A stretch of DNA of 64,000 nt from Thermoanaerobaculum aquaticum (GTDB lineage: Bacteria; Acidobacteriota; UBA4820): NCBI GenBank assembly GCA_020722885.1, contig DYJZ01000001.1, forward strand, positions 1,144 to 65,143. Direction: 5' to 3'. Made by a program: the position numbers and the translations under genes. This document shows positions 50,163-63,700 of the stretch, piece after piece (positions within the stretch are counted from its first letter, which is position 1; every line of letters starts with the position of its first letter). Below the pieces are notes generated by a model. It was not told the DNA's origin. It saw only the letters and a program-made list of their open reading frames with translations, and searched no databases.

Positions 50163-51731
50163 TCACATATAGCCCAAATTTTTGAGCTTCTCCTTTACCT
50201 GCTCTTCATCTATGTTTTGACTGTTTAAATCAATTTTTCTAATACTACCATAATCTTCAAATTTAATTTTTTCTGGTTCTTTCACATACCCAATAAGCGG
50301 TTTACCATCCATCGTTAGCCCAACTGGCAAACCCAGAAGATAGAGAATGGTCGGACAGATATCTACTATTTCTGCCTCCTCAATCTTCTCTTTCTGCTCG
50401 AAAGAATTTCCATACAAAATCAGAAAACCATTTTTTCTATGAGAACCGCTTTTTATAGCACCATATTGAGAGGATACTTTAATTTCTTCATATAAAGACC
50501 AATCAGTTTTGAAGGCGTATCTTCCATCCTCTTCAAGAATCAAATCTGGAGCGTTTTCAAGCCACTCTCCCTTGTAGACTTCCTCTTTCTTCCAGACTTT
50601 TACAAAAGGTCTGTTTTGAGTTTCTTCATCGATATAGTTCATAAATCTCTCTTTAAGCTCATTTGCTATTTCATTTTTTCTTTTCTCATCAAGGATAACA
50701 ACAGACCTGCCAGAAACACTTGTAAAGACAGCACTCGATTTTGTAAAGTCTATAAAACCAAGAGGATTTGCAAGCGGTGAGCTTTTAATATTTTCTCTCA
50801 AAAATTTCCTGATTTTAGGTGGAACAACCGATTTTAAAACTTTTTTTATTGGAGACTTTTTTAAAACATCTTCAGCGTATTCATTAACTTTGAGGTATCC
50901 CCACTTATGAAGAAGTTTGTTTACATACACATCTTTGTAAAGCGGACCAAAACCGTGGTCTGAATAGATTATAAGGTCACAGTCACCAAACTCTTTTAAA
51001 AAATTTTGAATCCCCTTTTCAATTCTCCTGTAATATCTTAAAATTTCATCTTTAAATTTAGTTCCATCGACATATTTTGGATGGCTCTCATCAAAATCGT
51101 GCCAGTAAAAATGCATAACTCTATCAGATTCGTCGTAAATATGCATCATAACTAATGGATTGATTTTTTTCATTAGTTCTACTGATATTTTCTCATCAAT
51201 CTCCGTAATTTCATAAATTTCTTCTAAAAATTTGACTCTGTTTCCTTTTTCAAGATGGAAAGTGCTTGCCCCAAACTTCCCATTTTTTTCTTTTTGAACA
51301 TACTCTTCTACCTCTTCTGGATAAGCATAGGATGCACTCTTTGCTGGGGTAGCCATTCCTGAAACCATAAAGCCGTTTACTTTATCTACAGGATATGAGC
51401 AGGGAACATTGTAAAAACCACATTTTATATTGTGGTAACTCAATATCTCCCATATAGCAGGATATTTTCTGTCCATCGAAGAAAGAAGCCTTAACGATTT
51501 TGAATTTTTGTCAAAAACAAAAAAATCAAAAATATTGTGCTTTCCAGGATTCACTCCTGTAAAAGATGAGGTCCAGGCAGGGGGAGTTAGCGCCGGAACC
51601 GTGCTTTTTAGTTCACCAGAGCAACCCTCTTCCATAAGTTTTTTAAAAAAGGGAAGTTCTCCGCTTAAAGTGAATTTCTTTATTAGATCAGGAGTTCCGC
51701 CATCAATTCCAATAATCAATATCTTTTTCAA
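50163..51731 (-). CDS. Alkaline-phosphatase-superfamily protein (NPP/type-I phosphodiesterase-like, COG3379-like), paralog 1; carries the conserved C-terminal tail ...EEQVKEKLKNLGYM
   Basis: N-terminal metal-site motif ...LIIGIDGGTPDL.... Nucleophile region ...STVPALTPPAWTSSFTGVNPGKHNIFDF.... C-terminal tail motif shared with four other proteins in the module. Confidence 0.7.
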   Translation of the reverse strand: MKKILIIGIDGGTPDLIKKFTLSGELPFFKKLMEEGCSGELKSTVPALTPPAWTSSFTGVNPGKHNIFDFFVFDKNSKSLRLLSSMDRKYPAIWEILSYHNIKCGFYNVPCSYPVDKVNGFMVSGMATPAKSASYAYPEEVEEYVQKEKNGKFGASTFHLEKGNRVKFLEEIYEITEIDEKISVELMKKINPLVMMHIYDESDRVMHFYWHDFDESHPKYVDGTKFKDEILRYYRRIEKGIQNFLKEFGDCDLIIYSDHGFGPLYKDVYVNKLLHKWGYLKVNEYAEDVLKKSPIKKVLKSVVPPKIRKFLRENIKSSPLANPLGFIDFTKSSAVFTSVSGRSVVILDEKRKNEIANELKERFMNYIDEETQNRPFVKVWKKEEVYKGEWLENAPDLILEEDGRYAFKTDWSLYEEIKVSSQYGAIKSGSHRKNGFLILYGNSFEQKEKIEEAEIVDICPTILYLLGLPVGLTMDGKPLIGYVKEPEKIKFEDYGSIRKIDLNSQNIDEEQVKEKLKNLGYM

Positions 51732-53326
51732 GACATATACCCCAAACTTTTAAGTTTCTTTTGAATCTCCTCTCCATCAAAATCAATCCTTTCTCTTTCA
51801 GGCTTCTTCCCTTCGCAAAACTCTATTTTATGTTTTTCAAGATAGGAACTTTCAACTATTCTCTGGAAAACCTTTCCATCAAGATTATCAGGAATTTTTT
51901 GACCAAGAAAATAAAGGATTAAAGGTGCTATATCCAAAACAGAAATTTCACCCTTTTCAATTAACTGAGGAGTAATGTTTCTGCCATAACATAGAAAAAC
52001 ACCAAATAGTGAATGAATTCCTCTATCCACGAGTGCAAAGGGATTTTTCTCCAGCGTCCTTACTGCTGAGGAATAACCCCACTCAGAGTCGCCAAAAATC
52101 AGGTCAGGAGCATATTTTAAAAATTCTCCAGAATAGGTCTCCTCCTTATAAAAAATATCCCTGAAAAGTTTCTCCCCACCAAACTCAAGAGAAAGAAGTA
52201 AATTTTTCAAACTATCTCTTACCTCTTCTATGTCACATTCATCAACAATACCATCTTCAAATCTTAATTTGTCGTTTATGGTAACACCATATGATTCAGA
52301 AGTCATCATCAGCGCTTTTGATTTTAATGGATTTGCTTTGAGAAATAGAGGGTATGGGTATCCAAATTTTCTTAATAATTTAATAAATTTTCCTGCAAAT
52401 GGATTTTTCATTCCCATCTTCAGCCATCTTTCACTCACTTTTTTGAAATCACTTCTGTCAAATAGACCCTTTTCCATTTTGTGGCTTAAAGGTGGAGAAG
52501 GGTTTTCGTAATCTGGCTCCAAAAAACCATTTTGGAAAAGAATTTCATTAAAATGCAATATCCCTTTTGCTTTTTTGAAACCGTGATCGCTTACGATCAT
52601 TAAACAATCATCTTCACCAAGACCTTTTGCTGCAAAATATATCGCTTCGTCAAAAAGCCTGAATATTTCGTATGCTTCCTCTGGAGCAACTCCATCAAAC
52701 ATCTCCCCAAAAAATTCGTGGCTAAGCCAGTCCCCACCCGAGAAAACAATAAAAAAACAGTCCCAATCTTTGTGCCACAAATGCTTCATTGCCTGAAATC
52801 TTATTCTTTCAATTTCGTAAACACCTTTAATGTAGCCTTTTAAATCCCCTTTTCTCAAAAGTGAAGTGTCAGGAAATATCCTGTAGTTCTTAAAAATATC
52901 CACTTCTTCTTTCAAACTTTCTGGAAAAACGCAATTTTCACCCTGCGTTAAAAGTGAGGTAATTGTTATTTCTGATGTAAGGGGGGGATATGTTCCTGGA
53001 AGATTTATTAAAATTGTTTTCTTTCCGTTCCTGCTTAATATTTCATAAAATGTCTCTGTCTGTATGTCCCATGATTGAAGAGGTCTTATTCTTGAAAGCG
53101 AATTTTCCGCTTTGTTAAAATCAAAACAACCGTGTTTTCCAGGATTCACACCTGTTGCCATTGATATCCAAGAAGGTGCCGTAACTGGCGGATATGTTGA
53201 CAGAAGTTTTCCCCTTGCTGAATCTTTATACAAATCATTTAAGCAGGGCATAATATTCTTTTCCATAAGGACCTCAAGAAGATCCCATGTTGCCCCATCA
53301 ATACCCAAAACGACTACTTTTCCCAT
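51728..53326 (-). CDS. Alkaline-phosphatase-superfamily protein (COG3379-like), paralog 2; C-terminal tail ...GEEIQKKLKSLGYMS
   Basis: ...VVLGIDGATWDL..., ...STYPPVTAPSWISMATGVNPGKHGCFDF..., and the conserved tail. Confidence 0.7.
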   Translation of the reverse strand: MGKVVVLGIDGATWDLLEVLMEKNIMPCLNDLYKDSARGKLLSTYPPVTAPSWISMATGVNPGKHGCFDFNKAENSLSRIRPLQSWDIQTETFYEILSRNGKKTILINLPGTYPPLTSEITITSLLTQGENCVFPESLKEEVDIFKNYRIFPDTSLLRKGDLKGYIKGVYEIERIRFQAMKHLWHKDWDCFFIVFSGGDWLSHEFFGEMFDGVAPEEAYEIFRLFDEAIYFAAKGLGEDDCLMIVSDHGFKKAKGILHFNEILFQNGFLEPDYENPSPPLSHKMEKGLFDRSDFKKVSERWLKMGMKNPFAGKFIKLLRKFGYPYPLFLKANPLKSKALMMTSESYGVTINDKLRFEDGIVDECDIEEVRDSLKNLLLSLEFGGEKLFRDIFYKEETYSGEFLKYAPDLIFGDSEWGYSSAVRTLEKNPFALVDRGIHSLFGVFLCYGRNITPQLIEKGEISVLDIAPLILYFLGQKIPDNLDGKVFQRIVESSYLEKHKIEFCEGKKPERERIDFDGEEIQKKLKSLGYMS

Positions 53327-54799
53327 TTATGCCAGTTTAACTTTCTCAATAAGTTTACCAAACAATTCTTTATCCTCTTTTTCCATACCTAAAAAAATTA
53401 TACTAATAACAAACAAAATCAAAGAGACAAGCAATGAAAGTAATGGAACTATGTTGTAAAGCAAGAAGCCTGCAATTAAAGATAAAGATACAGAAAAAAG
53501 AGGCTTTAAAATTGATTTATTCCAGGGTGATATTTTCAATATTATATTAATTTCGATAGATCTTAAAAGATTGACAACAATCAAACTCAAAGCCGACCCG
53601 AGAGCAGCACCTAAGGCTCCATACTCTGGAATTAAAATAACAAGCAAAATAACATTAAAAATGCCCACAAATATCGCATTTACAAGGTTAACTTTTGGAT
53701 GACCTGTCTGCGTAATAAGCGTGCCATTTGTTCCAAAAGCAGCGCTGAATAACTGCCCTGCTGTTAAAACAGATAGCGGCAGTATTCCTTCTTTAAAATC
53801 TTTTCCAAAAAGAGAAAGTATCAATTTTGATCCAAAAATAAGAACTATTGCCGCTATTGATGCAGCAATAAAAATCCACCTTGTTGAGGTCTTGTATAAA
53901 TTTGAAAGTCCCTCCGTGTCACTTTTACCTGTTAACGCAGAATATTGAGGCGCAAGTGATGCCCCAAGAGAATCTGCAGGCATTCCAACACCGAGAGCAA
54001 GCCGTGAAGCAATTGCATAAATTCCAACCTCCTTTGGCTCTCTAAAAAAACCCATTATAAGTATGTCAGACTGAAGTATGAAGAAACTTAAAAAATTTAA
54101 GAAAAGAATTGGAATTGAGAAAGAGAATAATTCTCTGTATCTGTTTTCTTTAAGAGGCGGTAAAGGTGGAATTTTTTGCAGTTCTTTTCTCACCCAAATA
54201 TATGAGAAAAGAAAAACTATTGCCGCTGATAAAACATAGCAAAAAAGAACAAATTCCATTTTCCTTACAAATAGTGCCCCAATAAGTAAAAAGAGAGAAA
54301 AGATTAGAGGATGGGCAATTTTTTCGATAAAGACCCTTTTTCTTATCCTCATAAAGCCCTGAAGAATACTGCTTTTTACATTGTATAATGAGAGAAAAGG
54401 AATTGAAAGACCAAGCCCGATTAACGGCACAACAAGGCTTTCTTTCTTATAAACTTTATTTGCTATAAACGGCGAAATAAGAACAAAAAATGATAAAGAC
54501 AGAATACCAATTATCAATGTTAGTTTTGTTCCATTTTTTATAAACCATAAAGTGGAAGAGTAATTTTCTTTCTCCTTTTCTTTTGCCACAAAGTGAACCA
54601 TTGCCGATGGGAATCCAAAAGAGGTCGCTATTGTAGTTACTGTCACAATGGTATTTGCAAGGGCGTAAATGCCAAAACCTGCGGCTCCAAGAATCCTTGT
54701 CAGGATTATGTTGTTCCCATAGCGAACAAAAGCTCCACCCAGACTGAACAGCCATGCAAAGCCGCCTTCTTTCGCCGCTATTTTGCCTCTATCTGCCAT
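53327..54799 (-). CDS. wzx: Wzx-type polysaccharide flippase (second copy in the window)
   Basis: 490 aa, about 14 TM helices, Polysacc_synt-like. Confidence 0.7.
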   Translation of the reverse strand: MADRGKIAAKEGGFAWLFSLGGAFVRYGNNIILTRILGAAGFGIYALANTIVTVTTIATSFGFPSAMVHFVAKEKEKENYSSTLWFIKNGTKLTLIIGILSLSFFVLISPFIANKVYKKESLVVPLIGLGLSIPFLSLYNVKSSILQGFMRIRKRVFIEKIAHPLIFSLFLLIGALFVRKMEFVLFCYVLSAAIVFLFSYIWVRKELQKIPPLPPLKENRYRELFSFSIPILFLNFLSFFILQSDILIMGFFREPKEVGIYAIASRLALGVGMPADSLGASLAPQYSALTGKSDTEGLSNLYKTSTRWIFIAASIAAIVLIFGSKLILSLFGKDFKEGILPLSVLTAGQLFSAAFGTNGTLITQTGHPKVNLVNAIFVGIFNVILLVILIPEYGALGAALGSALSLIVVNLLRSIEINIILKISPWNKSILKPLFSVSLSLIAGFLLYNIVPLLSLLVSLILFVISIIFLGMEKEDKELFGKLIEKVKLA

Positions 54800-54802
54800 A
54801 TG

Positions 54803-56080
54803 TTATAAATATCCGAGAGATTTAAGTTGTTTTTCAATCTCTTTACTGCTTTTTCCTTCGCTTGAGGGTAAATCAGATTTATAGTTCATTGATTTGAGAA
54901 AATCATCCATTTTCTTTTTCATAGTTTTTTCTAAATCTTTGTCGCAATAAGGCTTCCCGCTCCTTTCAAAAAGATTTTCTTCTTCCAGTTTCATCTGCCA
55001 TTTATTTTCAACATAACCATTTCTTTCAACATAAATAAAATTTTTATCCCTTATAGCCTTCATAAAGTTGTCAACATGTTCTGAAAAGGAAAAATCTCTT
55101 ATTTTGCCTTTCCCGCTTAAAAGTTTTGAAAGATCTATTCCCTGATACCTTTCTTCCTCTATGTTTGCATACCCTGCTATTGTAGGAGCAATGTCAGTAT
55201 GCTCCACAATTTCATTACATTCTTCTCCTCCATATTTATTTTCTGGGAATTTTACAAAAAGCGGGACATTCACTGTTTCATCAAACAATTTCTTATGGGC
55301 ACAGAAAATATTATGGTCTCCAAGAAGACATTCACCATGGTCTGCTGTTAGAAAAATCAAACTTTCTTTATACAAATCCAATTTTTTTAAAATGGAGAAA
55401 AAGACATTCAGTTCGTTATCTATATAACTTATCGCTCCTTTGTAGCATTCAGGGAAAAAAGAAAGGTCAACTTTTTTTTCATATTCTTTAAAATACGGCG
55501 AAAACCAGCCCTTTGAATCTATCTGCTCTTTTACACTATTTTTTGCTCTGGTTTTATTTCCTTTAAAATATTTCTTGGGTGAGTAATAAGGCATATGGGC
55601 ATCAAAAAAATGAAGCCATAAAAACTTATTATCTCCTCTCCCTCTGTCAAGAAGCCATTTTAAGCCTTTCGAAACAACATTTTGAGCCTTTCTTCTTTCG
55701 CCCATTAACTTTTTTATAATTTTTTTTACTCTTGAATTATAAGGGCTAAAAATGTCATCAGTTTCACCAACTTTGTTCCCGAGTTGATTTGCAAGGAATG
55801 AAATTCCGCAAACTGCTTTTGTTTCAAAGTATTTACTTCTCAATCTATTATCCAGTGAAAAATCTGGCAGGGGTACAGAAGTGTAATTTGAATAGACACC
55901 GTGCTGAAATAGATATTGTGATGTAAACATTGTGTAATGGGATGAGAGCGTATTCTGGCTCTGAGAAAAAGCGTTTGAAAAAGAAACCCAATCCTGTTTA
56001 TCCTTAAAAAATTGTGGCATCAAATCAGGATTGAAGTAATCTTTTCTTACACAATCAAGGGTAATTAAAATAACAATCAT
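54803..56080 (-). CDS. Sulfatase-fold (AP-superfamily) hydrolase/transferase lacking the C/S-x-P-x-R formylglycine motif; C-terminal tail ...SKEIEKQLKSLGYL
   Basis: N-terminal ...MIVILITLDCVRKDYF... aligns to the sulfatase metal-binding start, but the formylglycine position reads ...NTLSSHY.... Downstream ...LWLHFFDAHMPY... matches the sulfatase metal ligands. Carries the conserved tail. Confidence 0.65.
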   Translation of the reverse strand: MIVILITLDCVRKDYFNPDLMPQFFKDKQDWVSFSNAFSQSQNTLSSHYTMFTSQYLFQHGVYSNYTSVPLPDFSLDNRLRSKYFETKAVCGISFLANQLGNKVGETDDIFSPYNSRVKKIIKKLMGERRKAQNVVSKGLKWLLDRGRGDNKFLWLHFFDAHMPYYSPKKYFKGNKTRAKNSVKEQIDSKGWFSPYFKEYEKKVDLSFFPECYKGAISYIDNELNVFFSILKKLDLYKESLIFLTADHGECLLGDHNIFCAHKKLFDETVNVPLFVKFPENKYGGEECNEIVEHTDIAPTIAGYANIEEERYQGIDLSKLLSGKGKIRDFSFSEHVDNFMKAIRDKNFIYVERNGYVENKWQMKLEEENLFERSGKPYCDKDLEKTMKKKMDDFLKSMNYKSDLPSSEGKSSKEIEKQLKSLGYL

Positions 56081-57108
56081 TGAATTTTAACCAGATTTTT
56101 GTATTTTCTTTCAATATCCTCGCTGTTTAATCTTGGATAGATTATTCTTAAAGTCCTTGTCCTGTAAAAATTTATATCAACGCATTTCATTGCCTGCACC
56201 TCGTTTCCACAGGCACAGACTGAGTGTGGACAGATTCTGTAATTTAAGGAAAGTTCAGGAAAACCATCTAAAAGATTTCCAATTTTCTCCTTTATAATTC
56301 TTTTTTCAACCATTTTTTTCCCGAAAGATCTGTTAATTTTATAGGCTACCTTCTCAAAAAGAGTCCACTCTGGATATTTGTCAACGCCACATTTATAAAT
56401 ATCTCCCTTATGGTCAATGTAAAAGTAATCTTCACCTGCTCCACAGGCTTTTCCCTTCGGCGAATCTCTTTCAACAAGCATTCTGTAATAATGGTGGGAA
56501 AAGAAAACTTCTTTTAAAAAATTTCTCTCGCTTTGAGTATATGCATCGGGATAGGTCTTCCCGTTATACTCACCATTAAGTTCATTGAGAATAAAGGGAA
56601 CGCCCATATCATCCAATCTTTTCTTGTACTCTTTGATTTTTTCAAACCTATTGGGAATAGCAACATATCCGACATAAATTAAAACTCCCATATCATTTAT
56701 TCTTTTTACCTTTTCAAAAAAATCTTCAATATTATTGATAACGGTATCGTGCAGGGTACAACCCATTCCCAGTTTTTTTAGATTGACTCTTTCAAAAAAA
56801 TCATTCATACAACTCCAGTCCGCCTGAAGATTTGACGAGAATGAAACTCCAAGAATGCTGTCACTTTTGCTCAGCTCAATTACCCCCTGCTGCAGTTCCT
56901 TTGAAAGAAAGAACTCCCCCTCCACACCAATCCTCAAAACTATTTTTTCTTCTGCCTTCTTTAAAACCTCAACGCACCTAAAAAATTTTTGAGAATCGAA
57001 TTCAACCTTTCTCTTCGGCCACTCAGCAATACAGTAAGGGCATTTCAGGTTACATTTTGTAAATCTAACCTGCCATCTGATTTTAACAATCTTCTTTGAG
57101 TCAGTCAT
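56077..57108 (-). CDS. Radical SAM enzyme with a C-terminal SPASM/twitch-like cysteine cluster
   Basis: CNLKCPYC (Cx3Cx2C) at residues 19-26. C-terminal ...GKACGAGEDYFYIDHKGDIYKCG... and ...ICPHSVCACGNEVQAMKC... auxiliary-cluster-like motifs. Confidence 0.7.
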   Translation of the reverse strand: MTDSKKIVKIRWQVRFTKCNLKCPYCIAEWPKRKVEFDSQKFFRCVEVLKKAEEKIVLRIGVEGEFFLSKELQQGVIELSKSDSILGVSFSSNLQADWSCMNDFFERVNLKKLGMGCTLHDTVINNIEDFFEKVKRINDMGVLIYVGYVAIPNRFEKIKEYKKRLDDMGVPFILNELNGEYNGKTYPDAYTQSERNFLKEVFFSHHYYRMLVERDSPKGKACGAGEDYFYIDHKGDIYKCGVDKYPEWTLFEKVAYKINRSFGKKMVEKRIIKEKIGNLLDGFPELSLNYRICPHSVCACGNEVQAMKCVDINFYRTRTLRIIYPRLNSEDIERKYKNLVKIQ

Positions 57109-58393
57109 AGATTTTCTTTAAAATTATAGAGCCAACATCTTCTATGTGAGGTTTTTTTGTAAACTTTTCGTCCGTAATTAAAAATGCATCGTCTCTCGTG
57201 TGCATTCCGGTGAAATGGGTTTTCGCAAAAGGTTCGGTGCTTCTGGGATTTCCCTTTAAATCAAAGCCATAATTTGAGAGAAGAACCATATCAGGTGCGT
57301 TTGAAATGTAGTCTCCCTTATAAATCTCTTCTTTATAGAAAATCTCTCTAATTACTTTTTTCCCGTTTCTTTCGAGAGAGGAAAAAAGTTGCTTTAAATC
57401 CGTTCTGATTTTCTCAACATCATTTTCTTCAACGCTGCCTTTAGGATACTTATCTTTTCGGTGGATGTAAATTCTTGAAGGGTCCATAGCAAAAGCCCTG
57501 CTTTGAGAATCTATTTTGCCAAAATCCGAAGGGGGATCTTCCTCCCATTTTAAAAAGCCATTCTGAACAAGAATCCTGTTTAAATAGACTTCTTCTTCTA
57601 TTTTTGTAAAGCCGTGGTCGCTCATCATTAGAACGGTATCTTTCTCATTTGTTCTGTCAAGTATTTCACCAACAGCCTCATCAACCTTCTTATAAAACTT
57701 CATTGCTGTTTCAAATCTCTCACTCTTTTCATCCACAACAACATCATATTCAAAATGCTGTAAACGGTCAGTATCTGTAATTACACCTATAAAGAGGTCA
57801 CACTGTTCATTCCACAACTCACTGAAAACTTTTCTTCTTTTGTCAAGGGTATCAAAAAGATCATCGTAAAAAAACTTTTTGTCTTTCGCTTTTGTAGTGT
57901 CAACATCAATTTTATAATCCATTTTTTTCAATTTTTCGTAAAGAGTTTGAGGATAAACAGATTTTTTAAGGTCAACAGCAACAAAGCCTGATATCAAAAT
58001 TCCGTTATGCTCTCTTGCTGGATATGTTCCGGGCAGGTTGAGAACTGTGCTCTTCTTACCATTTTCCCCGATTTTATCCCAGATAGTTTTTTCTTTCAAC
58101 GAAAGATAGTTAGGAAAAGTTATCGAATAAGAATTGGGCTTAAGTTCAGTAAAACCGAAAATTCCGTGTCTTGCGGGATTTGTTCCAGTCATAAATGAAG
58201 CCCACGAAACAGATGAAATCTCAGGAAGTGAAGCATCCATCTGCATAAAATTGCCTTTCTGACATAAATTCTTTATATTGGGACAAACTCCTCTTTCAAT
58301 AAGGTTTTTTAAAAGTGAAAAGGGAACTCCGTCAAGTCCAATCATTACAACTCTCTTTTCCCTTTTCTTGAGAATATTCTTAATAAAATTCAT
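57101..58393 (-). CDS. Alkaline-phosphatase-superfamily protein (COG3379-like), paralog 3 (no tail motif)
   Basis: ...VVMIGLDGVPFSLL... and ...SWASFMTGTNPARHGIFGF.... Confidence 0.7.
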   Translation of the reverse strand: MNFIKNILKKREKRVVMIGLDGVPFSLLKNLIERGVCPNIKNLCQKGNFMQMDASLPEISSVSWASFMTGTNPARHGIFGFTELKPNSYSITFPNYLSLKEKTIWDKIGENGKKSTVLNLPGTYPAREHNGILISGFVAVDLKKSVYPQTLYEKLKKMDYKIDVDTTKAKDKKFFYDDLFDTLDKRRKVFSELWNEQCDLFIGVITDTDRLQHFEYDVVVDEKSERFETAMKFYKKVDEAVGEILDRTNEKDTVLMMSDHGFTKIEEEVYLNRILVQNGFLKWEEDPPSDFGKIDSQSRAFAMDPSRIYIHRKDKYPKGSVEENDVEKIRTDLKQLFSSLERNGKKVIREIFYKEEIYKGDYISNAPDMVLLSNYGFDLKGNPRSTEPFAKTHFTGMHTRDDAFLITDEKFTKKPHIEDVGSIILKKIYD

Positions 58394-58395
58394 TT

Positions 58396-59238
58396 TTAGT
58401 TTCCTCTAATCCTTGAAAAGAATTTCTCTGCAACCCAATCGGGAATCCTCATATTTCCTTCACCAATTCCAATGAATATGTTCGGGCGATTGCTTCCGTG
58501 GAAATCGCTTCCACCAGTTACCAGAAGGTCCAATTCCTGTGCTATCTGCAGGAGGTTTTCCTCATCCTCCTTTGTGTGATTTCTGTAAAAACATTCCAAT
58601 CCCTCAAGTCCACTTTCTTTAAGTCTTATTACAACTTCCCTGATTTCACTAAAATTCAATTTTAAAGATAATGGGTGAGCCAGAACGGGAACCCCTCCAC
58701 TTTCGAGTATTATTCTTATTGCTTCTTCTGGTTCAAATCTAAATTTGTCCACATAGCATTGCGCTCCCTTTTTGAGATACCTGTCAAAAGCCTCCTGTGT
58801 GGATGATACATAGCCCTTCTTTAGCATTACCGAGGCAAAATGGGGTCTTCCAACCACCTTTCCCCCTGCTTCTTTTACAACATCTTCATAACATAAATCA
58901 AAACCTGCCTCGTTAAGTTTTTGAACAATTTTGGGGTTTCTTTCCTCTCTCGCTTTTCTTAGAAACTTAAGTTTTTCATTCAGAGTTTTATCTCTGTAGT
59001 CAATGCCATAGCCGAGAATGTGCATTGTTCGGTCTTTAAATTCTGCAGAAACCTCTACGCCTCCCGCGAACTTTAGCCCTCTTTCTCTGGCATAAAGTAG
59101 AGCACTCTCAACCCCATCTATCGTGTCGTGGTCTGTAAGTGAAAGATGTGTTATCCCCTGAGATATTGCATAATCAACGAGGTCTTCCGGGTGAAATGTC
59201 CCATCAGATGCTGTTGAATGAGTATGCAGGTCAATCAT
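58396..59238 (-). CDS. PHP-family metal-dependent phosphoesterase (candidate 3',5'-bisphosphonucleotide/pAp phosphatase)
   Basis: N-terminal [13 protein letters not shown]...[11 protein letters not shown] motifs. Immediately downstream of and overlapping cysC. Confidence 0.7.
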
Positions 59239-59882
59239 CCGAGGTAACCAAGGTCCTTCAATCTTCTGGCAACTTCTTCTTCTTCCTCCTTTGAATAATC
59301 TGAAGAAGGATCGGCTGGGATCAGTTTCATCATCTCAAGAGTTTTGATAATTTTGTTTAAAGATGTTTCCACGCTCTCTTCTCCAGTTTTACAGATAACC
59401 TCAGGATTTAAAGGCGGTTCGTAAGGATCTGATACCCCCGTAAAATTCTTTATCTCACCATTTAGAGCCTTTTTATAAAGTCCTTTCGTATCTCTTTCAA
59501 TCAATTTCTCTAAAGAGCATTCACAATAAACTTCAACAAATTTCGCCCTTTCTTCTACAAATTTTCTCACTTCGTCTCTTATATCTCTGTACGGAGATAT
59601 TGCAGCAGTTATTGCACAAACTCCATTTCTTGAAAGAAGTTTTGCAACATATCCAATTCTTCTTATGTTGGTATCCCTATCTTCTTTTGAAAATCCAAGA
59701 CCTTTTGAAAGATTTGTTCTGACTTCATCTCCGTCAAGAACTTCAACTTTAACGCCTCTTTCAAGAAGTTTTTCTTCAGCAAGTTTTGAAAGTGTTGATT
59801 TTCCTGAACCTGATAACCCTGTAAACCATAAAACGAATCCTTTGTTGTTCATGCTCTCTCCTTTACTCGATAATTTTTCCAA
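59235..59882 (-). CDS. cysC: Adenylylsulfate (APS) kinase; C-terminal tail ...[17 protein letters not shown]
   Basis: P-loop ...[15 protein letters not shown]... and full APS-kinase length, followed by an acidic linker and the conserved tail. Confidence 0.85.
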
Positions 59883-61245
59883 TCATTCCTTCTTCTTTTT
59901 TTATACCGAAAATATTTAGAATGGTGGGAGCAATATCGTATATTGATATGCTCTTCCTCCTTCCTTTGCTAATTCCATTGCCCTTCATTATGAAAAGCCC
60001 GTATTGGGCGTGGTTTGCATCGTCAGGTCCCGTATCATTTTCGAATGTGTGTATCGCTCCTCCACCAACGCTTCCCGCGCTTCTCCAGTTGAGATCTCCA
60101 AAATACACAATCAGATCGGGCGGTATATTTTTTACCTCCCTGTAAACTTCTTCAGGTTTAAATACTTTTGTTCCTATCGGATTTCCATTCTGATCTCCAA
60201 GATTTTCAAGTTTTGATTTTATTTCGTCTCTTACTTTCTCATATTGACTTTTTGGTATTATTCCTGATGGTTCTCTTCCTTCAACATTCATAAAAATTCT
60301 TGAATAGTATCCTCCTTCACCCCAGCAGTATGTCTTATTCCAGTCAATATCTGAAACCCTGAGTTTCTGCTGTTTATCAGGTTCTTCTTTAAGTTTTAAA
60401 AGCCCTTCCCTTCTGAAAAATTCATTTACACATATTGCCCCATGCATTGTTTTAGCACCATGGTCTGAAACTACAAAAATAATGGTATCATCATCAAGAA
60501 TTTTAAGGACAGAACCTATCTCGCTGTCAAGATAAATATAGTAATCTCTTATCGCATACTCAAATTTGTGCCCCTTTTCATAAAGTCTGTGGTTTTTATC
60601 ATGGTATCTCCAGAATGCATGGTGAATTCTATCAACACCCATCTCAACAAAGATAAAGAAATCCCATTCTTTTGACCTAATAAACTCTCTGACAACTTTA
60701 AACCTTCTTCTTGTCATCTCATAAATTTGTTTTAAAAGTTCTTCTTTGTTTTCTGTCCTGAAATCTTTTACATCAATAATGTAATCCCCCCCTGCAGCCA
60801 TATCTATCTCTTTAGCGGCTTCTTCAGGATATGTCCATACCCCATTTTTGTCGGGAGTCAGAAAACAGCCTGCCATTATCCCGTTTATCGGTTTTGGTGG
60901 ATAACTCTGGGGAACGCTTAAAACTATTGACGAGAGACGGTTTCTCGATAAAATCTGGTAGAGTGTTTTCTCTTTTACATAAGCACCGTTAGCAAAATAA
61001 AGCTCCTCGTAGCCGTAAGACTTTCTGTTTCTAAAACCATAAAAACCAAGTTGCCCAGGGTCTTTACTTGTCATCATCGATGTCCAGGCAGGAACCGTTA
61101 TTGGAGGCAGTGTAGATTTCATTTCTCCATAGCAACCTTCGTTCATAAGTGAGCTAAGATTGGGAAGCAGATTTCTCCATTCTCCAAAGACCAGAGATGG
61201 CTCAAAGCAGTCTATTCCAAAAACAAACACCTTCTTCTTTTTCAT
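59863..61245 (-). CDS. Alkaline-phosphatase-superfamily protein (COG3379-like), paralog 4 (no tail motif)
   Basis: ...[12 protein letters not shown]... and ...[28 protein letters not shown].... Confidence 0.7.
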
Positions 61246-61261
61246 TTTTTCTCCGATTTAA

Positions 61262-61294
61262 AAAGGTCATATAAATGGGCTAAAAGTAGCCCAT
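61262..61294 (-). terminator. Candidate intrinsic terminator/attenuator at the 3' end of the RHH gene
   Basis: Perfect 8-bp stem ATGGGCTA-AAAG-TAGCCCAT (61275-61294). On the minus-strand RNA it is followed by a U-rich tract (UUAUAUGACCUUUUUAAAUC), then the start of the next gene. Confidence 0.35.
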
Positions 61295-61495
61295 ACTTTT
61301 CAGCCGCTTTCTTATTGCCTCAATCTCTTTAGCAGAAAGGTTTGAAGTACTTTTGTCGCTTTCCTGATGAGAAACAAGATCTCTTAAAACATAAACGACA
61401 AATTCCGTAACTGAAGAAAAACCACTACCTTCAATTGAAACTTTCAATTTTTCATATAAAGGCTTTGGAATTTTTATTGTAACTTTGTTTTCCAA
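61280..61495 (-). CDS. Small ribbon-helix-helix (CopG/Arc-like) protein carrying the same C-terminal tail ...KEIEAIRKRLKSMGYF
   Basis: 71 aa. N-terminal beta-strand/helix/helix pattern (VTIKIPKPLYEKLKVSIEGSGFSSVTEFVVYVLRDLV), then a Ser/Asp-rich linker and the conserved tail. Sits at the head of the tail-tagged module. Confidence 0.4.
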   Translation of the reverse strand: MENKVTIKIPKPLYEKLKVSIEGSGFSSVTEFVVYVLRDLVSHQESDKSTSNLSAKEIEAIRKRLKSMGYF

Positions 61496-61939: not shown

Positions 61940-62299
61940 TCAAAAATCTCCTTTAACAAACCTGACCTTTTACGGTCAAAACAATATTACAAAAAAATAA
62001 ATCGCCTGTCAACATCCATAGCCCCCTAAAATTTTAACAAAATTATTTCACATGTGTTCATCTATTTTCTTTGGCAGTAATGCTTTTAACTTTCAATTTC
62101 AACATCCACACATTTTCAATTTTTCTTTATTGCTAAAATATTTTCTCCTCATATTATCAGGATTATCCTCGAGATGGTTGATCATCACATTCAGAGCATG
62201 AAGTTTCTCCTCAAATGATGATGCTTTTTCAATCATACCGAATGCAACAACGCTTTTATAAAATATGTACTCATCGCTCGAGGATAACGGATTGACCTT

Positions 62300-63700
62300 T
62301 TAAGCGGCAGTGCCAGAAGGTATGAAGTAAAAGGTCAAGTTAAGAGGCTCACTTTTTTTATAAATCATATAAATAATTTCCTGATCAGGAACTTGTTCTG
62401 TAAGTTCGTTAGTTTGAAACTCTTGCCCTATATTGATGTTTGCAGCTCGTGTGGTAATAATCACCTTATGGTGATTTGTATTTAATTCTGATATAAATTC
62501 TACTATTTTGTCTTTTTCTTCTTTTGGAAAAGTCTCAAAATCATCAACTACCAAAAAAACTTTCTTCCCGTCAATTTGAATAATTTGTTTAGGGTCATCA
62601 CTTTCAGTATTGAAAAGAATTTTGTTTACTCCTTTTATTAAATCTGAAAATGTAGCTATTCGGTCAGTAATTTCTTCTATTTTACCTGTATAATAATCGT
62701 ATTTTCTATCTTTTGCTGATAAAAATATAATGTAGTCAAAAACCTTTTTTTCGTCATTTGCTAAATCTTCACAGAGGCTTTGAATTGTAGCTGTTTTACC
62801 TACTCCTCCATGTCCCCAAACTGTGGCACAAACAAAAGCATTATTTCTAATGAGAAATGTTTTTAATTTTCCCTTAATACCTATATCAATATACTTTCGG
62901 TAGTTGTTTTCGTAAATATTGCGAATTGTACCGTTATGGCTTTTTACTTTTACTCCGTCATTTGTAACGTCTAATTCACACAATTCGTCCCACTCTTTAA
63001 AGTAGATACCTGTGACAAGCAACCTGTTGTACTTTACTTTTCCAAGAAGTTTTTCATCAATACTGTTGAAAAAGTAAAGCTCATTTCCGTAAAAAGTGAT
63101 TTCAATAAAAGGCGATAGCCTAAAATATGTATTAGACTCTGTGCTTGCGTACAAACTGCCTAATTCAAAAGAACCAATCGTTTTTGGACAACTCCAAGGG
63201 GCATAACCTGCCCCGTCACTTTTGTATAAAATGCCTTTATAGGTTGTATTTTCTGTATTAGTTACATATACTAAATCTACGTTGTCTTTAAGGATTGGTA
63301 AATCTTCTGCCAAAACGAAGTCGTAAAGCTCTTGTAATGCTGAAAGTAATTTTTCAGGTGCATCTTCATAAACAAATCCGTGTCCAGGCAATTCATTCCT
63401 AACAGATGGATATTTGTCTAAGGCTTGGCTTAGTTTACTCTTTTTGAAAATTTCTTTTTCTGTGTCAAGTTTTCGGCAAATACCAACTATACTACCAATT
63501 GTAGGTTTTATAACTGACTGAAAAACAAACTCTTTATCTTCGTAATCAAGTTCGTCTAAGTTCTTGTTCCAAAGATAAGCCAACAGGTAAACCAACACAT
63601 ATTCAAACCTTGCTTGAAAGTGCTGGTTTAAGGCGTTTTTGTCGCCCATAGTTTGTAAGAAGTCTATTCGTTGGTCAATCTGTTTTCTGATGTAATCCAT
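62300..63700 (-). CDS. NB-ARC/STAND-type P-loop NTPase with an N-terminal domain of unknown function (candidate defence/signalling NTPase); possibly disrupted, since an in-frame TAA is followed by 57 more plausible codons down to about 62126
   Basis: Walker A GHGGVGKTA. Walker B KVFLVVDDFE. NB-ARC motif HHKVIITTRAANI. The roughly 290-aa N-terminal region has no recognised motif. After TAA the frame continues KVNPLSSSDEYIFYKSVVAFGMIEKASSFEEKLHALNVMINHLEDNPDNMRRKYFSNKEKLKMCGC*. Confidence 0.55.
   Translation of the reverse strand: MDYIRKQIDQRIDFLQTMGDKNALNQHFQARFEYVLVYLLAYLWNKNLDELDYEDKEFVFQSVIKPTIGSIVGICRKLDTEKEIFKKSKLSQALDKYPSVRNELPGHGFVYEDAPEKLLSALQELYDFVLAEDLPILKDNVDLVYVTNTENTTYKGILYKSDGAGYAPWSCPKTIGSFELGSLYASTESNTYFRLSPFIEITFYGNELYFFNSIDEKLLGKVKYNRLLVTGIYFKEWDELCELDVTNDGVKVKSHNGTIRNIYENNYRKYIDIGIKGKLKTFLIRNNAFVCATVWGHGGVGKTATIQSLCEDLANDEKKVFDYIIFLSAKDRKYDYYTGKIEEITDRIATFSDLIKGVNKILFNTESDDPKQIIQIDGKKVFLVVDDFETFPKEEKDKIVEFISELNTNHHKVIITTRAANINIGQEFQTNELTEQVPDQEIIYMIYKKSEPLNLTFYFIPSGTAA

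What the first reader, a model, noticed from the sequence alone, without database searches (positions are those of the whole stretch)
50163..61495. Five unrelated proteins in one module share a conserved C-terminal peptide tail (...EE[IV]xx[KR]LKxLGY[MLF])
Five proteins end in the same motif after a Ser/Asp/Glu-rich linker:
- AP paralog 1: ...NIDEEQVKEKLKNLGYM
- AP paralog 2: ...DFDGEEIQKKLKSLGYMS
- sulfatase-fold protein: ...SSKEIEKQLKSLGYL
- APS kinase: ...[18 protein letters not shown]
- 71-aa RHH protein: ...SAKEIEAIRKRLKSMGYF

The underlying DNA differs in synonymous codons (ggc/ggg, aat/agt). The conservation is therefore at the peptide level, not a nucleotide repeat. The folds are unrelated (AP-superfamily, sulfatase fold, P-loop kinase, RHH). 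A shared appended amphipathic helix with a penultimate Tyr looks like a targeting, docking or scaffolding tag, or a common substrate peptide for a modifying enzyme. The adjacent radical SAM/SPASM protein is an obvious candidate for the latter. This is formally analogous to encapsulation peptides or to HbYX/GQYL-type docking tails. The other members of the module (AP paralogs 3 and 4, PHP, radical SAM, Wzx) lack the tail.
Basis: seen in the sequence. Interest (0 to 1): 0.85.

Follow-up and report, generated by a model that had tools for sequence, protein, structure and literature searches.

The report
Shared helix tail marks sulfate-pathway proteins
Five proteins in this gene cluster end in the same ~20-residue self-capped helix on a flexible linker; the tail is widespread and apparently undescribed, and it marks proteins of sulfate uptake, activation and transfer together with their small DNA-binding regulator across many bacterial phyla and some archaea, most likely as a docking handle.

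Summary
Exactly five ORFs in the 64-kb window end in ...L[KR]x[LM]GY[MLF], all within the 11-kb module (0.25 matches expected by chance). The conservation is at the peptide level. The tail is not specific to this locus. It is the normal C-terminus of a very large family of small RHH proteins (120/120 homologs), a clade of APS kinases (119/120) and most COG3379-type alkaline-phosphatase-superfamily enzymes (99/120, including Brocadia and Haloferax). In other genomes it also occurs on CysA, SulP, CysD-like and DUF2061 proteins and in a TauE loop. Tailed RHH genes head operons for sulfate import, ATP sulfurylase, APS kinase and AP-type enzymes. The unit is a doubly capped amphipathic helix on a tether. 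AlphaFold leaves it undocked on AP1 but places it confidently on CysC. The radical-SAM-substrate idea fails: the rSAM gene co-occurs in 5/83 and 0/120 tail-containing loci. Best reading (about 0.45): a pathway-specific docking or assembly helix shared by the enzymes, the transporters and their regulator. The partner was not identified. The main rival is membrane targeting. The core of the motif is a generic helix design that also occurs in unrelated domains.

The parts
61283..61339 (-). Tail of the 71-aa RHH protein: LSAKEIEAIRKRLKSMGYF (N-cap box L-S-x-x-E, amphipathic helix, L-K-x-M-G-Y C-cap)
   Evidence: conserved in 120/120 homologs; alignment A1 has invariant R64, L65, G69, Y70
59238..59297 (-). 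Tail of APS kinase CysC: [20 protein letters not shown], appended after the native last helix of the kinase fold and a Pro/Ser/Asp linker
   Evidence: solved APS kinases align only to about residue 183-196; 119/120 homologs; helix 198-211, pLDDT about 90
54806..54850 (-). Tail of the cytoplasmic sulfatase-fold protein: SSKEIEKQLKSLGYL
   Evidence: tailed homologs in 14 RHH-anchored loci and about 10 metagenome loci
51731..51784 (-). Tail of AP paralog 2: DFDGEEIQKKLKSLGYMS
50166..50216 (-). Tail of AP paralog 1: NIDEEQVKEKLKNLGYM
   Evidence: 99/120 homologs tailed; AlphaFold helix 509-518 with pLDDT 44-56 on a body with mean pLDDT 90.7
61280..61495 (-). RHH (CopG/Arc/MetJ-like) small protein, the probable regulator at the head of the module
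   Evidence: weak NikR RHH match, E=0.05; sources name it CopG family
59863..61245 (-). AP4, an untailed COG3379-type AP-superfamily protein; its ortholog (61% identity) lies between ATP sulfurylase and CysC in other phyla
59235..59882 (-). APS kinase CysC (true start probably the ATG at 59852, giving 205 aa)
   Evidence: NF002059, 268 bits against cut-off 244; P0121, 205 aa, 100% identical
58396..59238 (-). PHP-family phosphatase, best match 3',5'-nucleoside bisphosphate (pAp) phosphatase (below the curated cut-off); untailed
   Evidence: NF041577, 214 bits, cut-off 400
57101..58393 (-). AP3, an untailed COG3379-type AP-superfamily protein
56077..57108 (-). STM4011-like radical SAM protein; untailed and not generally linked to the tail
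54803..56080 (-). Sulfatase-fold (PF00884) protein, tailed; no N-terminal signal peptide was noted by eye
53327..54799 (-). Wzx-type polysaccharide flippase, untailed
51728..53326 (-). AP2, a tailed COG3379-type AP-superfamily protein
50163..51731 (-). AP1, a tailed COG3379-type AP-superfamily protein with an NPP/PhnA-like fold
61963..62012 (-). Sigma-70-like promoter (TTGACA-17-TAATAT) followed by a perfect palindrome TGACC-N6-GGTCA upstream of DUF3887-RHH; a candidate operator
   Evidence: the palindrome recurs at the same relative position in L001 and L005

Best explanation
Each tail is one copy of a portable unit of about 40 residues. It has a flexible, usually acidic linker followed by a self-contained amphipathic alpha-helix of about 16-19 residues. 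The helix has an N-capping box ([Y/L]-S-x-x-E) and a Schellman-type C-cap (L-[KR]-x-[LM]-G-Y-hydrophobic), and it ends 0-1 residue before the stop codon. The unit marks a functional set of proteins. These are small RHH regulators, sulfate importers (CysA, SulP), sulfate-activating enzymes (CysD-like, CysC), AP-superfamily enzymes that probably use PAPS (COG3379 type and cytoplasmic sulfatase fold), and associated membrane proteins (DUF2061, plus a loop of TauE). The most likely function is a tethered docking helix that binds a common partner surface in trans. That partner could be other copies of the tail, through antiparallel helix pairing, or a shared untailed hub protein. Docking would bring the pathway's transporters and enzymes together. 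It would also let the RHH regulator, which carries the same handle and heads the operons, read out or compete for that assembly. Shown: the anatomy, the distribution, the operon linkage, the absence of cis-docking in AP1, and the lack of linkage to the radical SAM enzyme. Inferred: trans-docking, the identity of the partner, and the regulatory coupling.
For: (1) The motif is strongly non-random and position-specific: 5 of 5 hits in the window are at C-termini, and across 1.86 Mb of fetched DNA 252 of 263 core matches lie 0-1 residue from a stop codon. (2) It is conserved within families across phyla: RHH 120/120, CysC 119/120, AP1-like 99/120 including Brocadia, Chlamydiae, Nitrospirota and Haloferax. 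The RHH family was found in 380 stretches of species genomes. (3) It is a discrete add-on. Solved APS kinases lack it. Four of the eight AP1 relatives scored as tail-less stop 22-24 residues after the last body motif, against 59-72 in tailed ones; the other four keep the extension with a diverged ending. (4) Three family-agnostic censuses give the same narrow owner list. These were the RHH-anchored loci, a DNA-pattern scan of metagenomes and a tail-only profile against 1.84 billion representatives (300 hits at E<=1e-3; 142 of the top 150 C-terminal). Owners are RHH-like proteins, CysC, COG3379 AP, sulfatase fold, CysA, SulP, a PhnC-like ATPase, DUF2061 and CysD-like proteins. (5) Operon linkage: RHH*-Sbp-CysT-CysW-CysA*, RHH*-Sat-CysC(*), RHH*RHH*-TauE(internal motif)-CysD*-CysN, and RHH*-Sat-AP4-CysC* found by anchoring on CysC. 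(6) The AlphaFold model of AP1 has a body at pLDDT 90.7 but a tail helix at 44-56, meaning tethered and not docked in cis. (7) All tails are dipolar, with an acidic N-half and a basic C-half. Window-type RHH tails are net basic and CysC/AP tails net acidic. One RHH protein (P0361) carries one copy of each type in tandem. This is compatible with antiparallel pairing. (8) Physical coupling of sulfate-activation steps is independently known from the CysN-CysC fusion in the M. tuberculosis sulfate-activating complex (PMC4373884) and the Sat-APS kinase fusions among solved structures (2gks, 3cr8).
Against: No partner was identified, and no untailed gene is constant across loci. The immediate neighbours of RHH* vary, and some tailed AP genes stand alone. 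In the CysC model the tail helix has pLDDT about 90, which could mean it packs on its own enzyme or dimer. The core xLxxLGY is a generic helix-cap design. It is the native last helix of some APS kinases (7yq0; L112), helix 1 of PG_binding_1-type repeats, and the end of unrelated TctC and PBP2 proteins, so part of the similarity could be convergent. The last 12 residues are amphipathic and net cationic like known membrane-targeting helices. Many RHH-like proteins in metagenomes carry acidic-type tails, which weakens a simple picture of basic regulator tails pairing with acidic enzyme tails.
Confidence: 0.45

Rival explanations
1. Membrane-targeting sequence. The tail is a MinD/FtsA-like C-terminal amphipathic helix that reversibly places soluble pathway enzymes, and the regulator, at the inner face of the membrane. 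The sulfate transporters, Wzx and the lipid-linked glycan substrates are there. In integral membrane carriers (SulP, DUF2061, the TauE loop) it would be an interfacial helix.
For: The last 12 residues have a net charge of +1 to +4 in most of the tails collected and a hydrophobic moment of 0.3-0.57, similar to MinD/FtsA sequences quoted from memory, and they follow an acidic stretch as in MinD. Several owners are membrane proteins or membrane-associated ATPases. A COG3379 homolog sits in a Haloferax glycan cluster, and sulfation there occurs on a dolichol-phosphate-linked sugar (PMC3892788). This model needs no dedicated receptor gene, which fits the lack of a constant untailed neighbour.
Against: The hydrophobic stripe is narrow (I/V at -11, L at -7, L at -4). 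CysC and AP tails are net acidic over 19 residues. Membrane-targeting helices usually conserve amphipathicity and not exact residues, whereas L, G and Y are near-invariant here. A generic membrane anchor should occur on many pathways, yet the censuses find it almost only on sulfate/AP-type proteins and RHH proteins. A membrane-anchored RHH DNA-binding protein would be unusual.
Confidence: 0.2
2. Cis-acting element. Each tail packs back on its own protein or homo-oligomer as an extra capping, lid or oligomerisation helix. Examples would be tetramerisation of RHH dimers as in Mnt/LacI, or an autoregulatory lid on CysC. In this model the tails do not interact between different proteins.
For: The CysC model places the tail helix with pLDDT about 90. 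In CysC the tail looks like a tandem duplicate of the native last helix of the fold (7yq0). C-terminal tetramerisation helices are established for the RHH repressor Mnt and for LacI (general knowledge).
Against: The AP1 tail is not docked (pLDDT 44-56). The same sequence on at least eight unrelated folds would require each fold to have evolved a matching groove. The long flexible linkers, and the restriction of the tail to one pathway plus its regulator, are not explained.
Confidence: 0.12
3. Shared C-terminal degron. The tail is recognised by an AAA+ protease or adaptor (Lon, ClpXP or FtsH type), so that the pathway proteins and their regulator are turned over together.
For: The tail is an exposed, tethered C-terminal peptide with hydrophobic or aromatic end residues. 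RHH antitoxins are classical protease substrates (general knowledge). The tail also occurs on cytosolic tails of membrane proteins.
Against: A conserved, doubly capped 19-residue helix is unlike known short degrons. The TauE copy is internal. No protease or adaptor gene is linked to the tail. Degrons are rarely conserved across phyla and between domains of life.
Confidence: 0.08
4. Common substrate peptide for a modifying enzyme: the neighbouring radical SAM/SPASM protein, the Wzc tyrosine kinase of the cluster, or a Tyr sulfotransferase acting on the invariant Tyr.
For: An STM4011-like radical SAM gene lies inside the module and a Wzc-type kinase lies at 83-2245. The tail has an invariant Tyr, and the module makes PAPS.
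Against: An rSAM homolog occurs in 5/83 and 0/120 tail-containing loci. Most tail contexts are sulfate transport or activation operons without polysaccharide or Wzc genes. The residues around the Tyr are basic and aliphatic, unlike the acidic context of known Tyr-sulfation sites (general knowledge). The invariance of G and Y is explained structurally by the helix C-cap.
Confidence: 0.04
5. No shared function: a stable capped helix arose or spread independently as a convenient C-terminal ending.
For: The core is generic and is also found in PG_binding_1-type repeats, TctC, PBP2 and ribosomal protein uL13.
Against: The full unit (linker, N-cap box, acidic run, basic helix, cap at the extreme C-terminus) recurs on a narrow, functionally coherent set of proteins and on the regulator that heads their operons. 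There are five copies in 11 kb against 0.25 expected.
Confidence: 0.04

Closest known systems
CysE C-terminal tail docking into CysK (cysteine synthase complex) and its mimics
   Same: It is a sulfur-metabolism system in which a flexible C-terminal peptide of one protein docks on a partner, and formation of the complex tunes enzyme function (PMC6829319). From general knowledge, other proteins (the CdiA-CT toxin, the CymR regulator) also engage CysK, which gives a precedent for one hub serving both enzymes and a transcription factor.
   Different: CysK recognition needs a terminal Ile carboxylate inserted in the active site. Here the ending is GY followed by F, L, I or M and then 0-2 further residues. 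One copy is internal, the conserved unit is a 16-19-residue helix, and no CysK gene is linked. Membership was tested and not met.
MinD/FtsA-type C-terminal membrane-targeting amphipathic helices
   Same: It is an extreme C-terminal, short, cationic amphipathic helix after an acidic or flexible stretch, appended to unrelated folds.
   Different: The hydrophobic face is narrower, residue-level conservation (L, G, Y) is much stronger, enzyme tails are net acidic, and the owners belong to one pathway. Lipid binding was not tested.
RHH antitoxins and repressors with C-terminal partner-binding or tetramerisation segments (RelB, ParD, CcdA; Mnt)
   Same: The architecture is an N-terminal RHH DNA-binding dimer followed by a linker and a C-terminal segment that folds on a partner or bundles with other copies, coupling protein-protein binding to operator occupancy.
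   Different: No toxin-like partner gene is adjacent. The same C-terminal segment is also carried by the regulated enzymes and transporters, which is not a feature of toxin-antitoxin or Mnt systems.
Bacterial microcompartment encapsulation peptides and encapsulin cargo-loading peptides
   Same: It is a terminal amphipathic helix of about 18 residues on a poorly conserved linker, shared by functionally related but structurally unrelated enzymes.
   Different: No shell or encapsulin genes were found in the window. The owners include a DNA-binding protein, ABC ATPases and integral membrane proteins, which cannot be cargo.
Fused sulfate-activating enzymes (CysN-CysC, Sat-CysC/PAPS synthase)
   Same: They serve the same pathway and the same presumed selective advantage, namely keeping ATP sulfurylase, APS kinase and downstream steps physically together (PMC4373884; 2gks and 3cr8).
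   Different: Those are covalent fusions. Here the proposed coupling is non-covalent through a shared helix, and it has not been demonstrated.

Membership tests
RiPP-like / radical SAM-SPASM substrate peptide | Consistent genomic co-occurrence of the peptide with its maturase | tested here: not met
   tblastn of the window rSAM protein: 5 of 83 RHH-anchored loci and 0 of 120 motif-anchored loci
BMC encapsulation peptide / encapsulin cargo-loading peptide | Shell (PF00936/PF03319) or encapsulin gene in the locus | tested here: not met
   Pfam scans of the large window ORFs found none; a few ORFs between 12 and 22 kb were not scanned
BMC encapsulation peptide / encapsulin cargo-loading peptide | Owners are soluble cargo enzymes | tested here: not met
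   The tail also occurs on an RHH DNA-binding protein, CysA, SulP, DUF2061 and a TauE loop
HbYX proteasome-activator tail | Hydrophobic-Tyr-X at the exact C-terminus of an AAA ATPase or activator | tested here: not met
   The residue before Tyr is an invariant Gly. Of 263 core matches, 96 end with one residue after Tyr, 156 with two and 5 with more. The owners are not AAA ATPases
CysE-type CysK-docking tail | C-terminal Ile with a free carboxylate as the last residue | tested here: not met
   The last residues are F, L, M or I, often followed by G, S, D, E or K; one family carries an internal copy
MinD/FtsA-type membrane-targeting sequence | C-terminal cationic amphipathic helix | tested here: inconclusive
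   The last 12 aa have net charge +1 to +4 and muH 0.3-0.57, comparable to MinD/FtsA, but the full 19-aa unit is net acidic in CysC and AP
MinD/FtsA-type membrane-targeting sequence | Direct lipid binding | not testable with these tools
   Needs liposome flotation or localisation experiments
Ribbon-helix-helix (CopG/Arc/MetJ) regulators (for the 71-aa protein) | N-terminal beta-strand followed by two helices, similar to known RHH domains | tested here: inconclusive
   No Pfam or NCBIfam hit. The profile of A1 matches the NikR RHH domain at residues 2-47 with E=0.05. Sources name homologs CopG/Arc/MetJ
APS kinase CysC | Score above the curated family cut-off | tested here: met
   NF002059 268.1 bits (cut-off 244); TIGR00455 241.3 bits (cut-off 138.7)
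PG_binding_1 peptidoglycan-binding domain | Full three-helix unit: helix 1 (..LQxxLxxLGY) followed by DG.FG..T..AV..FQ..GL..DG | tested here: not met
   Only the helix-1-like part is present and the proteins end right after GY-x. That P0363/P0364/P0382 are PG_binding_1 repeats was recognised by eye, not confirmed by a Pfam scan
Capped autonomous alpha-helix (N-capping box plus Schellman C-cap) | S/T-x-x-E at the N-terminus; hydrophobic C3, Gly at C', hydrophobic at C'' | tested here: met
   Column frequencies: S/T at -18 in 85/120, E at -15 in 94/120, L at -7 in 117/120; G at -3 and Y at -2 were required by the selecting regex. Helix predicted in both models
Glycan sulfotransferase of the Haloferax Agl7 type (for AP1-AP4) | Homology to Agl7 (HVO_2046) and a requirement for sulfation | not testable with these tools
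   The paper shows that Agl7 is needed for sulfation of DolP-hexose (PMC3892788) but does not state its family. A tailed Haloferax homolog lies in an agl-like glycan cluster. That HVO_2046 is PF01663 is from memory only

The most novel reading that the evidence does not exclude
The tail is a pathway-wide interaction code for sulfate. A single conserved helix lets sulfate importers, ATP sulfurylase subunit CysD, APS kinase, PAPS-using AP-superfamily transferases and a dedicated RHH transcription factor bind one another or one hub. This would form a non-covalent sulfate-activation and sulfation assembly whose occupancy is read directly by the regulator, because the regulator carries the same handle. 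It would be a new principle for coupling metabolon assembly to gene control, conserved from Acidobacteriota to haloarchaea.
Probability: 0.3. Interest if true: 0.85.

Novelty: new variant of a known kind. Interest (0 to 1): 0.62.

Why it matters
Sulfate activation is thermodynamically uphill. Many organisms fuse its enzymes, and how unfused enzymes are coordinated is largely unknown outside a few model bacteria. Regulators of sulfate assimilation in most phyla are also unknown. A portable helix shared by transporters, activating enzymes, probable glycan sulfotransferases and a small RHH regulator gives a concrete, testable handle on both questions. It also flags two large uncharacterised groups: the tailed RHH proteins, found in hundreds of species genomes, and the COG3379 AP-type enzymes, which have no close solved relative. 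For annotation, the tail is a simple marker that predicts membership of a sulfate/PAPS-related gene set.

Tried and rejected
- **PDB search with a tail profile.** It returned only designed coiled coils and a chance match in ribosomal protein uL13, so there is no structural precedent.
- **Automatic tail-based locus retrieval.** It failed twice for lack of a conserved stretch. One metagenome scan used an unhelpful pattern and confirmed nothing. I replaced it with a hand-written degenerate DNA pattern.
- **CysD C-terminus lead.** 1ZUN_A ends ...KKRQGYF. The papers available say nothing about its role, and the structure paper is not held. It remains a lead only.
- **Sulfur-only theme.** I had to soften this, because some RHH* genes precede PstCAB phosphate-type transporters or unrelated genes.
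- **Hydrophobic moment and charge.** They did not separate the tail from known membrane-targeting helices.
- **Basic regulator tail pairing with acidic enzyme tail.** This holds for window-type RHH proteins but not for many metagenomic RHH-like proteins.
- **Coincidental owners.** The TctC, PBP2 and HAD-like owners were judged coincidental, because they are periplasmic or lack the linker and N-cap.
- **Family of HVO_2046/Agl7.** It could not be verified from the text, and no supplements are held.
- **Literature searches.** Searches for DUF2061, COG3379 and the motif strings found nothing relevant.

Full report
**1. Observation**

They lie on minus-strand ORFs 50163-51731 (AP1), 51728-53326 (AP2), 54803-56080 (sulfatase fold), 59235-59882 (CysC) and 61280-61495 (RHH).

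A six-frame scan of the 64-kb window with L[KR].[LMIVF]GY[LMFIV] finds exactly these five places. Each is 0-1 residue before a stop codon. Shuffled sequence gives a mean of 0.25 matches.

The conservation is at the peptide level:
- The 13 tail codons are only 41-74% identical in DNA.
- For CysC against AP1, AP2 and the sulfatase-fold protein, every shared residue is encoded by a different codon.
- No DNA repeat family lies on the tails.

Pfam and NCBIfam confirm the gene content:
- four PF01663 AP-superfamily paralogs;
- a PF00884 sulfatase-fold protein;
- an APS kinase that scores above its curated cut-off;
- a PHP-family phosphatase whose best match is 3',5'-bisphosphate nucleotidase (below cut-off);
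- an STM4011-like radical SAM protein;
- Wzx.

One correction to the finding: AP1, AP2 and the sulfatase fold belong to one superfamily, so the window itself shows three independent folds.

**2. Context in the window**

All genes run on the minus strand. The module sits at the head of a Wzx/Wzy-dependent polysaccharide cluster about 60 kb long. The cluster contains glycosyltransferases, two Wzy-like and two Wzx-like genes, nonulosonic-acid and amino-sugar genes, Wza and a Wzc-type tyrosine kinase. No microcompartment shell, encapsulin, ATP sulfurylase or canonical sulfotransferase gene was found.

A sigma-70-like promoter and a perfect palindrome TGACC-N6-GGTCA lie upstream of a DUF3887 gene that directly precedes the RHH gene.

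**3. The tail is not specific to this locus**

| Family | Homologs carrying the tail |
|---|---|
| RHH | 120/120 of the best hits (1536 hits in all) |
| CysC | 113/120 by the first regex, 119/120 on inspection |
| AP1-like | 99/120, from Acidobacteriota, Brocadia (Planctomycetota), Chlamydiae, Nitrospirota and Haloferax |

The RHH family was found in 380 stretches of species-representative genomes. They are labelled Acidobacteriota/Aminicenantes, Thermotogota, Omnitrophota, Chrysiogenota, Zixibacteria, KSB1, Desulfobacterota and others.

The tail is a discrete add-on:
- None of the solved APS kinases aligns beyond about residue 183-196 of the 215.
- Four of the eight AP1 relatives scored as tail-less stop 22-24 residues after the last body motif, against 59-72 residues in tailed ones. 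The other four keep the extension with a diverged ending.

**4. Who carries it**

Three censuses that did not depend on protein family agree.

(a) In 80 loci anchored on the RHH gene, tailed ORFs are RHH (84), CysC (21), sulfatase fold (14) and AP2-like (2). New owners also appear: a DUF2061 membrane protein, CysA-type ABC ATPases with a TOBE domain, and a second small RHH-like protein.

(b) I wrote a degenerate DNA pattern for [IV]xx[RKQ]LKxLGY[hydrophobic][DEKN]-TAA and scanned public metagenomes. The owners were:
- about 35 RHH-like small proteins of several divergent subfamilies;
- about 29 COG3379 AP proteins and about 10 sulfatase-fold proteins;
- CysC and DUF2061;
- a SulP sulfate permease that has the tail where no STAS domain is detected;
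- a PhnC-like ATPase;
- a few judged coincidental (periplasmic TctC, PBP2, short junk ORFs).

(c) A tail-only profile of 31 positions, searched against 1.84 billion representative proteins, gave 300 hits at E<=1e-3. Of the best 150, 142 carry the match at the C-terminus. These are again RHH-like proteins, APS kinases and AP-type enzymes.

Over all fetched DNA (1.86 Mb), 252 of 263 core matches lie 0-1 residue from a stop codon. The six truly internal copies all sit in a loop of TauE/SafE transporters.

**5. Operon logic**

Tailed RHH genes (marked *) head operons of the following types:

| Operon |
|---|
| RHH*-Sbp-CysT-CysW-CysA* (components above the curated sulfate-ABC cut-offs) |
| RHH*-TauE-DUF2061* |
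| RHH*-Sat-CysC(*) |
| RHH*RHH*-TauE(internal motif)-CysD-like*-CysN |
| RHH*-PAPS-reductase-like* |
| RHH*-AP4-CysC*-PHP-AP... (this window and close relatives) |

Anchoring instead on tailed CysC proteins from another lineage recovers RHH*-Sat-AP4-CysC*. The AP4 ortholog there is 61% identical to the window's AP4 and is untailed.

CysD-like proteins in these operons end ...MQKLRALGYM. Classical CysD (1ZUN_A) ends ...KKRQGYF, which may be a diverged relative.

There are exceptions. Some RHH* genes precede PstCAB-type transporters or unrelated genes, and some tailed AP genes stand alone.

COG3379 genes recur with Wzx, GT4, epimerase and UDP-glucose dehydrogenase genes. The tailed Haloferax homolog lies among rhamnose genes, a flippase, glycosyltransferases and a PHP protein. 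In Haloferax volcanii, Agl7 is required for sulfation of a dolichol-phosphate-linked hexose (PMC3892788). That Agl7 belongs to this family is my recollection and was not verified.

The window module is therefore best read as a PAPS-supply and glycan-sulfation module.

**6. Anatomy of the unit**

Column statistics over 120 distinct tails give [Y/L]-[S/T]-x-[E/D]-E-x-[E/D]-x-[I/V]-x-x-[R/K/Q]-L-[K/R]-x-[L/M]-G-Y-[F/L/I/M]. G and Y were required by the selecting regex.

- S-x-x-E is a helix N-capping box.
- L(-7), G(-3) and Y(-2) fit a Schellman C-cap: C3 hydrophobic, C' Gly, C'' hydrophobic.
- The unit is therefore a doubly capped, self-contained helix. Its N-half is acidic and its C-half basic.
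- The hydrophobic stripe is narrow (positions -11, -7, -4, plus -14 in RHH tails).

This design explains why the core also appears in unrelated settings:
- as the native last helix of some APS kinases (PDB 7yq0 ends ...EVEAVLKKLMELGYL; a 186-aa CysC in L112 ends ...KVIEKLKELGYIL);
- as what I recognise by eye as helix 1 of tandem PG_binding_1-type repeats (..LQQRLKELGYF);
- at the ends of TctC, PBP2 and uL13.

In longer CysC proteins the native helix (..LEVLGYVP) is followed by an acidic linker and a second copy. There the tail looks like a tandem duplicate of the native helix.

**7. Structure predictions**

| Model | Overall | Tail helix | Linker |
|---|---|---|---|
| AP1 | mean pLDDT 90.7, pTM 0.90 | 509-518, pLDDT 44-56 | low |
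| CysC (shallower, closer alignment) | mean pLDDT 88.7 | 198-211, pLDDT about 90 | about 78 |

The AP1 result is the signature of a preformed helix on a flexible tether that is not docked in cis. The CysC tail may pack on the enzyme or its dimer. I could not inspect contacts in either model.

AP1's fold is NPP/phosphonoacetate-hydrolase-like, with TM about 0.54 and no close solved relative.

**8. Interpretation**

The radical-SAM-substrate idea is rejected. A homolog of the module's rSAM gene occurs in 5 of 83 RHH-anchored loci and 0 of 120 motif-anchored loci, although all contain tails. The encapsulation-peptide, HbYX and CysK-docking memberships each fail a defining feature (see the membership table).

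The following points favour a pathway-specific protein-protein docking or assembly helix acting in trans (confidence about 0.45):
- the owner list is narrow and functionally coherent;
- the regulator that heads the operons carries the same tail;
- the tail sits on a tether;
- AP1's tail is undocked.

It may act by antiparallel pairing of the dipolar tails. The tandem basic-plus-acidic tails of P0361 are a weak Rosetta-stone hint for that. Alternatively it may bind a shared untailed hub; candidates seen next to tailed genes are Sat, CysN, AP4 and the PHP phosphatase. Known fusions (CysN-CysC, Sat-CysC) show that physical coupling of these steps is selected for (PMC4373884).

The main rival is a MinD/FtsA-like membrane-targeting helix (about 0.2), which simple biophysics does not exclude. 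Further rivals are a cis-acting helix (0.12), a degron (0.08), a modification substrate (0.04) and no shared function (0.04).

**9. Novelty and score**

I found no description of the motif. Full-text searches for motif strings, DUF2061 and COG3379 were unproductive. No Pfam or NCBIfam model covers the tail or the tailed RHH family.

Docking tails as a class are well known, so I rate this a new variant of a known kind. Interest is 0.62. The phenomenon is real, widespread (Bacteria and Archaea) and functionally coherent, and it suggests a testable link between metabolon assembly and regulation. However, the partner and mechanism are unresolved, and the core of the motif is a generic helix design.

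Noticed in passing
window 50163-61495: Four COG3379-type AP-superfamily paralogs and a sulfatase-fold protein sit with APS kinase, a PHP pAp-phosphatase-like gene and Wzx at the head of an exopolysaccharide cluster that has no canonical sulfotransferase. This suggests the AP-type enzymes are the PAPS-using glycan sulfotransferases. Compare Haloferax Agl7, which is required for sulfation of DolP-hexose (PMC3892788); the family identity of Agl7 was not verified.
   Followed up: partly
window 59863-61245; L205:8607-9986; L206:8587-9966: The untailed AP4 has a 61%-identical ortholog placed between ATP sulfurylase and CysC in another lineage (RHH*-Sat-AP4-CysC*). This implies a conserved core role in sulfate activation. 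It might also be a candidate partner for the tails.
   Followed up: partly
window 61963-62012: A sigma-70-like promoter (TTGACA-17-TAATAT) is followed by a perfect palindrome TGACC-N6-GGTCA upstream of DUF3887-RHH. The palindrome is at the same relative position in L001 (8393-8408) and L005 (1451-1466). It is a possible RHH operator.
   Followed up: partly
L088:4290-5108 and homologs in L107, L134, L189, L192: TauE/SafE transporters in RHH*RHH*-TauE-CysD-CysN operons carry the only internal copies of the motif (..DEAIKKRLRGLGYMPRS..), between transmembrane segments.
   Followed up: partly
P0361 (107 aa, from the representative library): This RHH protein has two tails in tandem: ..QVRKRLRGLGYL, then an acidic linker, then ..KIKKRLKDLGYI.
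   Followed up: no
L161:1-195, L107:3090-3899, PDB 1ZUN_A: CysD-like (PF01507) proteins next to CysN end ...MQKLRALGYM. Classical CysD ends ...KKRQGYF. The role of this conserved CysD C-terminus is not described in the papers available.
   Followed up: partly
window 59235-59882: The longest CysC ORF starts at a TTG. An identical database protein (P0121) has 205 aa, so the real start is probably the ATG at 59852.
   Followed up: partly
window 54803-57108: The radical SAM protein matches the STM4011 family and the adjacent sulfatase-fold protein weakly matches the STM4013 family. This recalls a conserved gene pair of unknown function. The sulfatase-fold protein appears to lack the Cys/Ser-x-Pro-x-Arg formylglycine motif (judged by eye).
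   Followed up: no
window 27994-29249: There is a local GC rise (0.41 against about 0.33) with a truncated GFO/IDH/MocA-like ORF (173 aa) and an unannotated 165-aa ORF. The region lies between two halves of the polysaccharide cluster, each with its own Wzx and Wzy. It may be a junction of two clusters or a decayed gene.
   Followed up: no
window 62300-63700: A STAND-type NTPase (NB-ARC/NACHT-like P-loop, 466 aa) lies directly upstream of the module's promoter region. Its C-terminal part looks short for this class.
   Followed up: no
L029, L035, L039, L043, L065, L076: In several Aminicenantes-type genomes the tailed RHH gene lies between dnaG-rpoD and an untailed PstC-PstA-PstB-type transporter. 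The regulator is therefore not restricted to sulfate genes.
   Followed up: partly
P0366, P0498 (representative library): Actinobacteria-like proteins are built of 8-10 repeats of about 65 residues, each ending ..RSARAVAERLRTLGYRVPDP. This is an uncharacterised repeat that uses the same capped-helix core.
   Followed up: no
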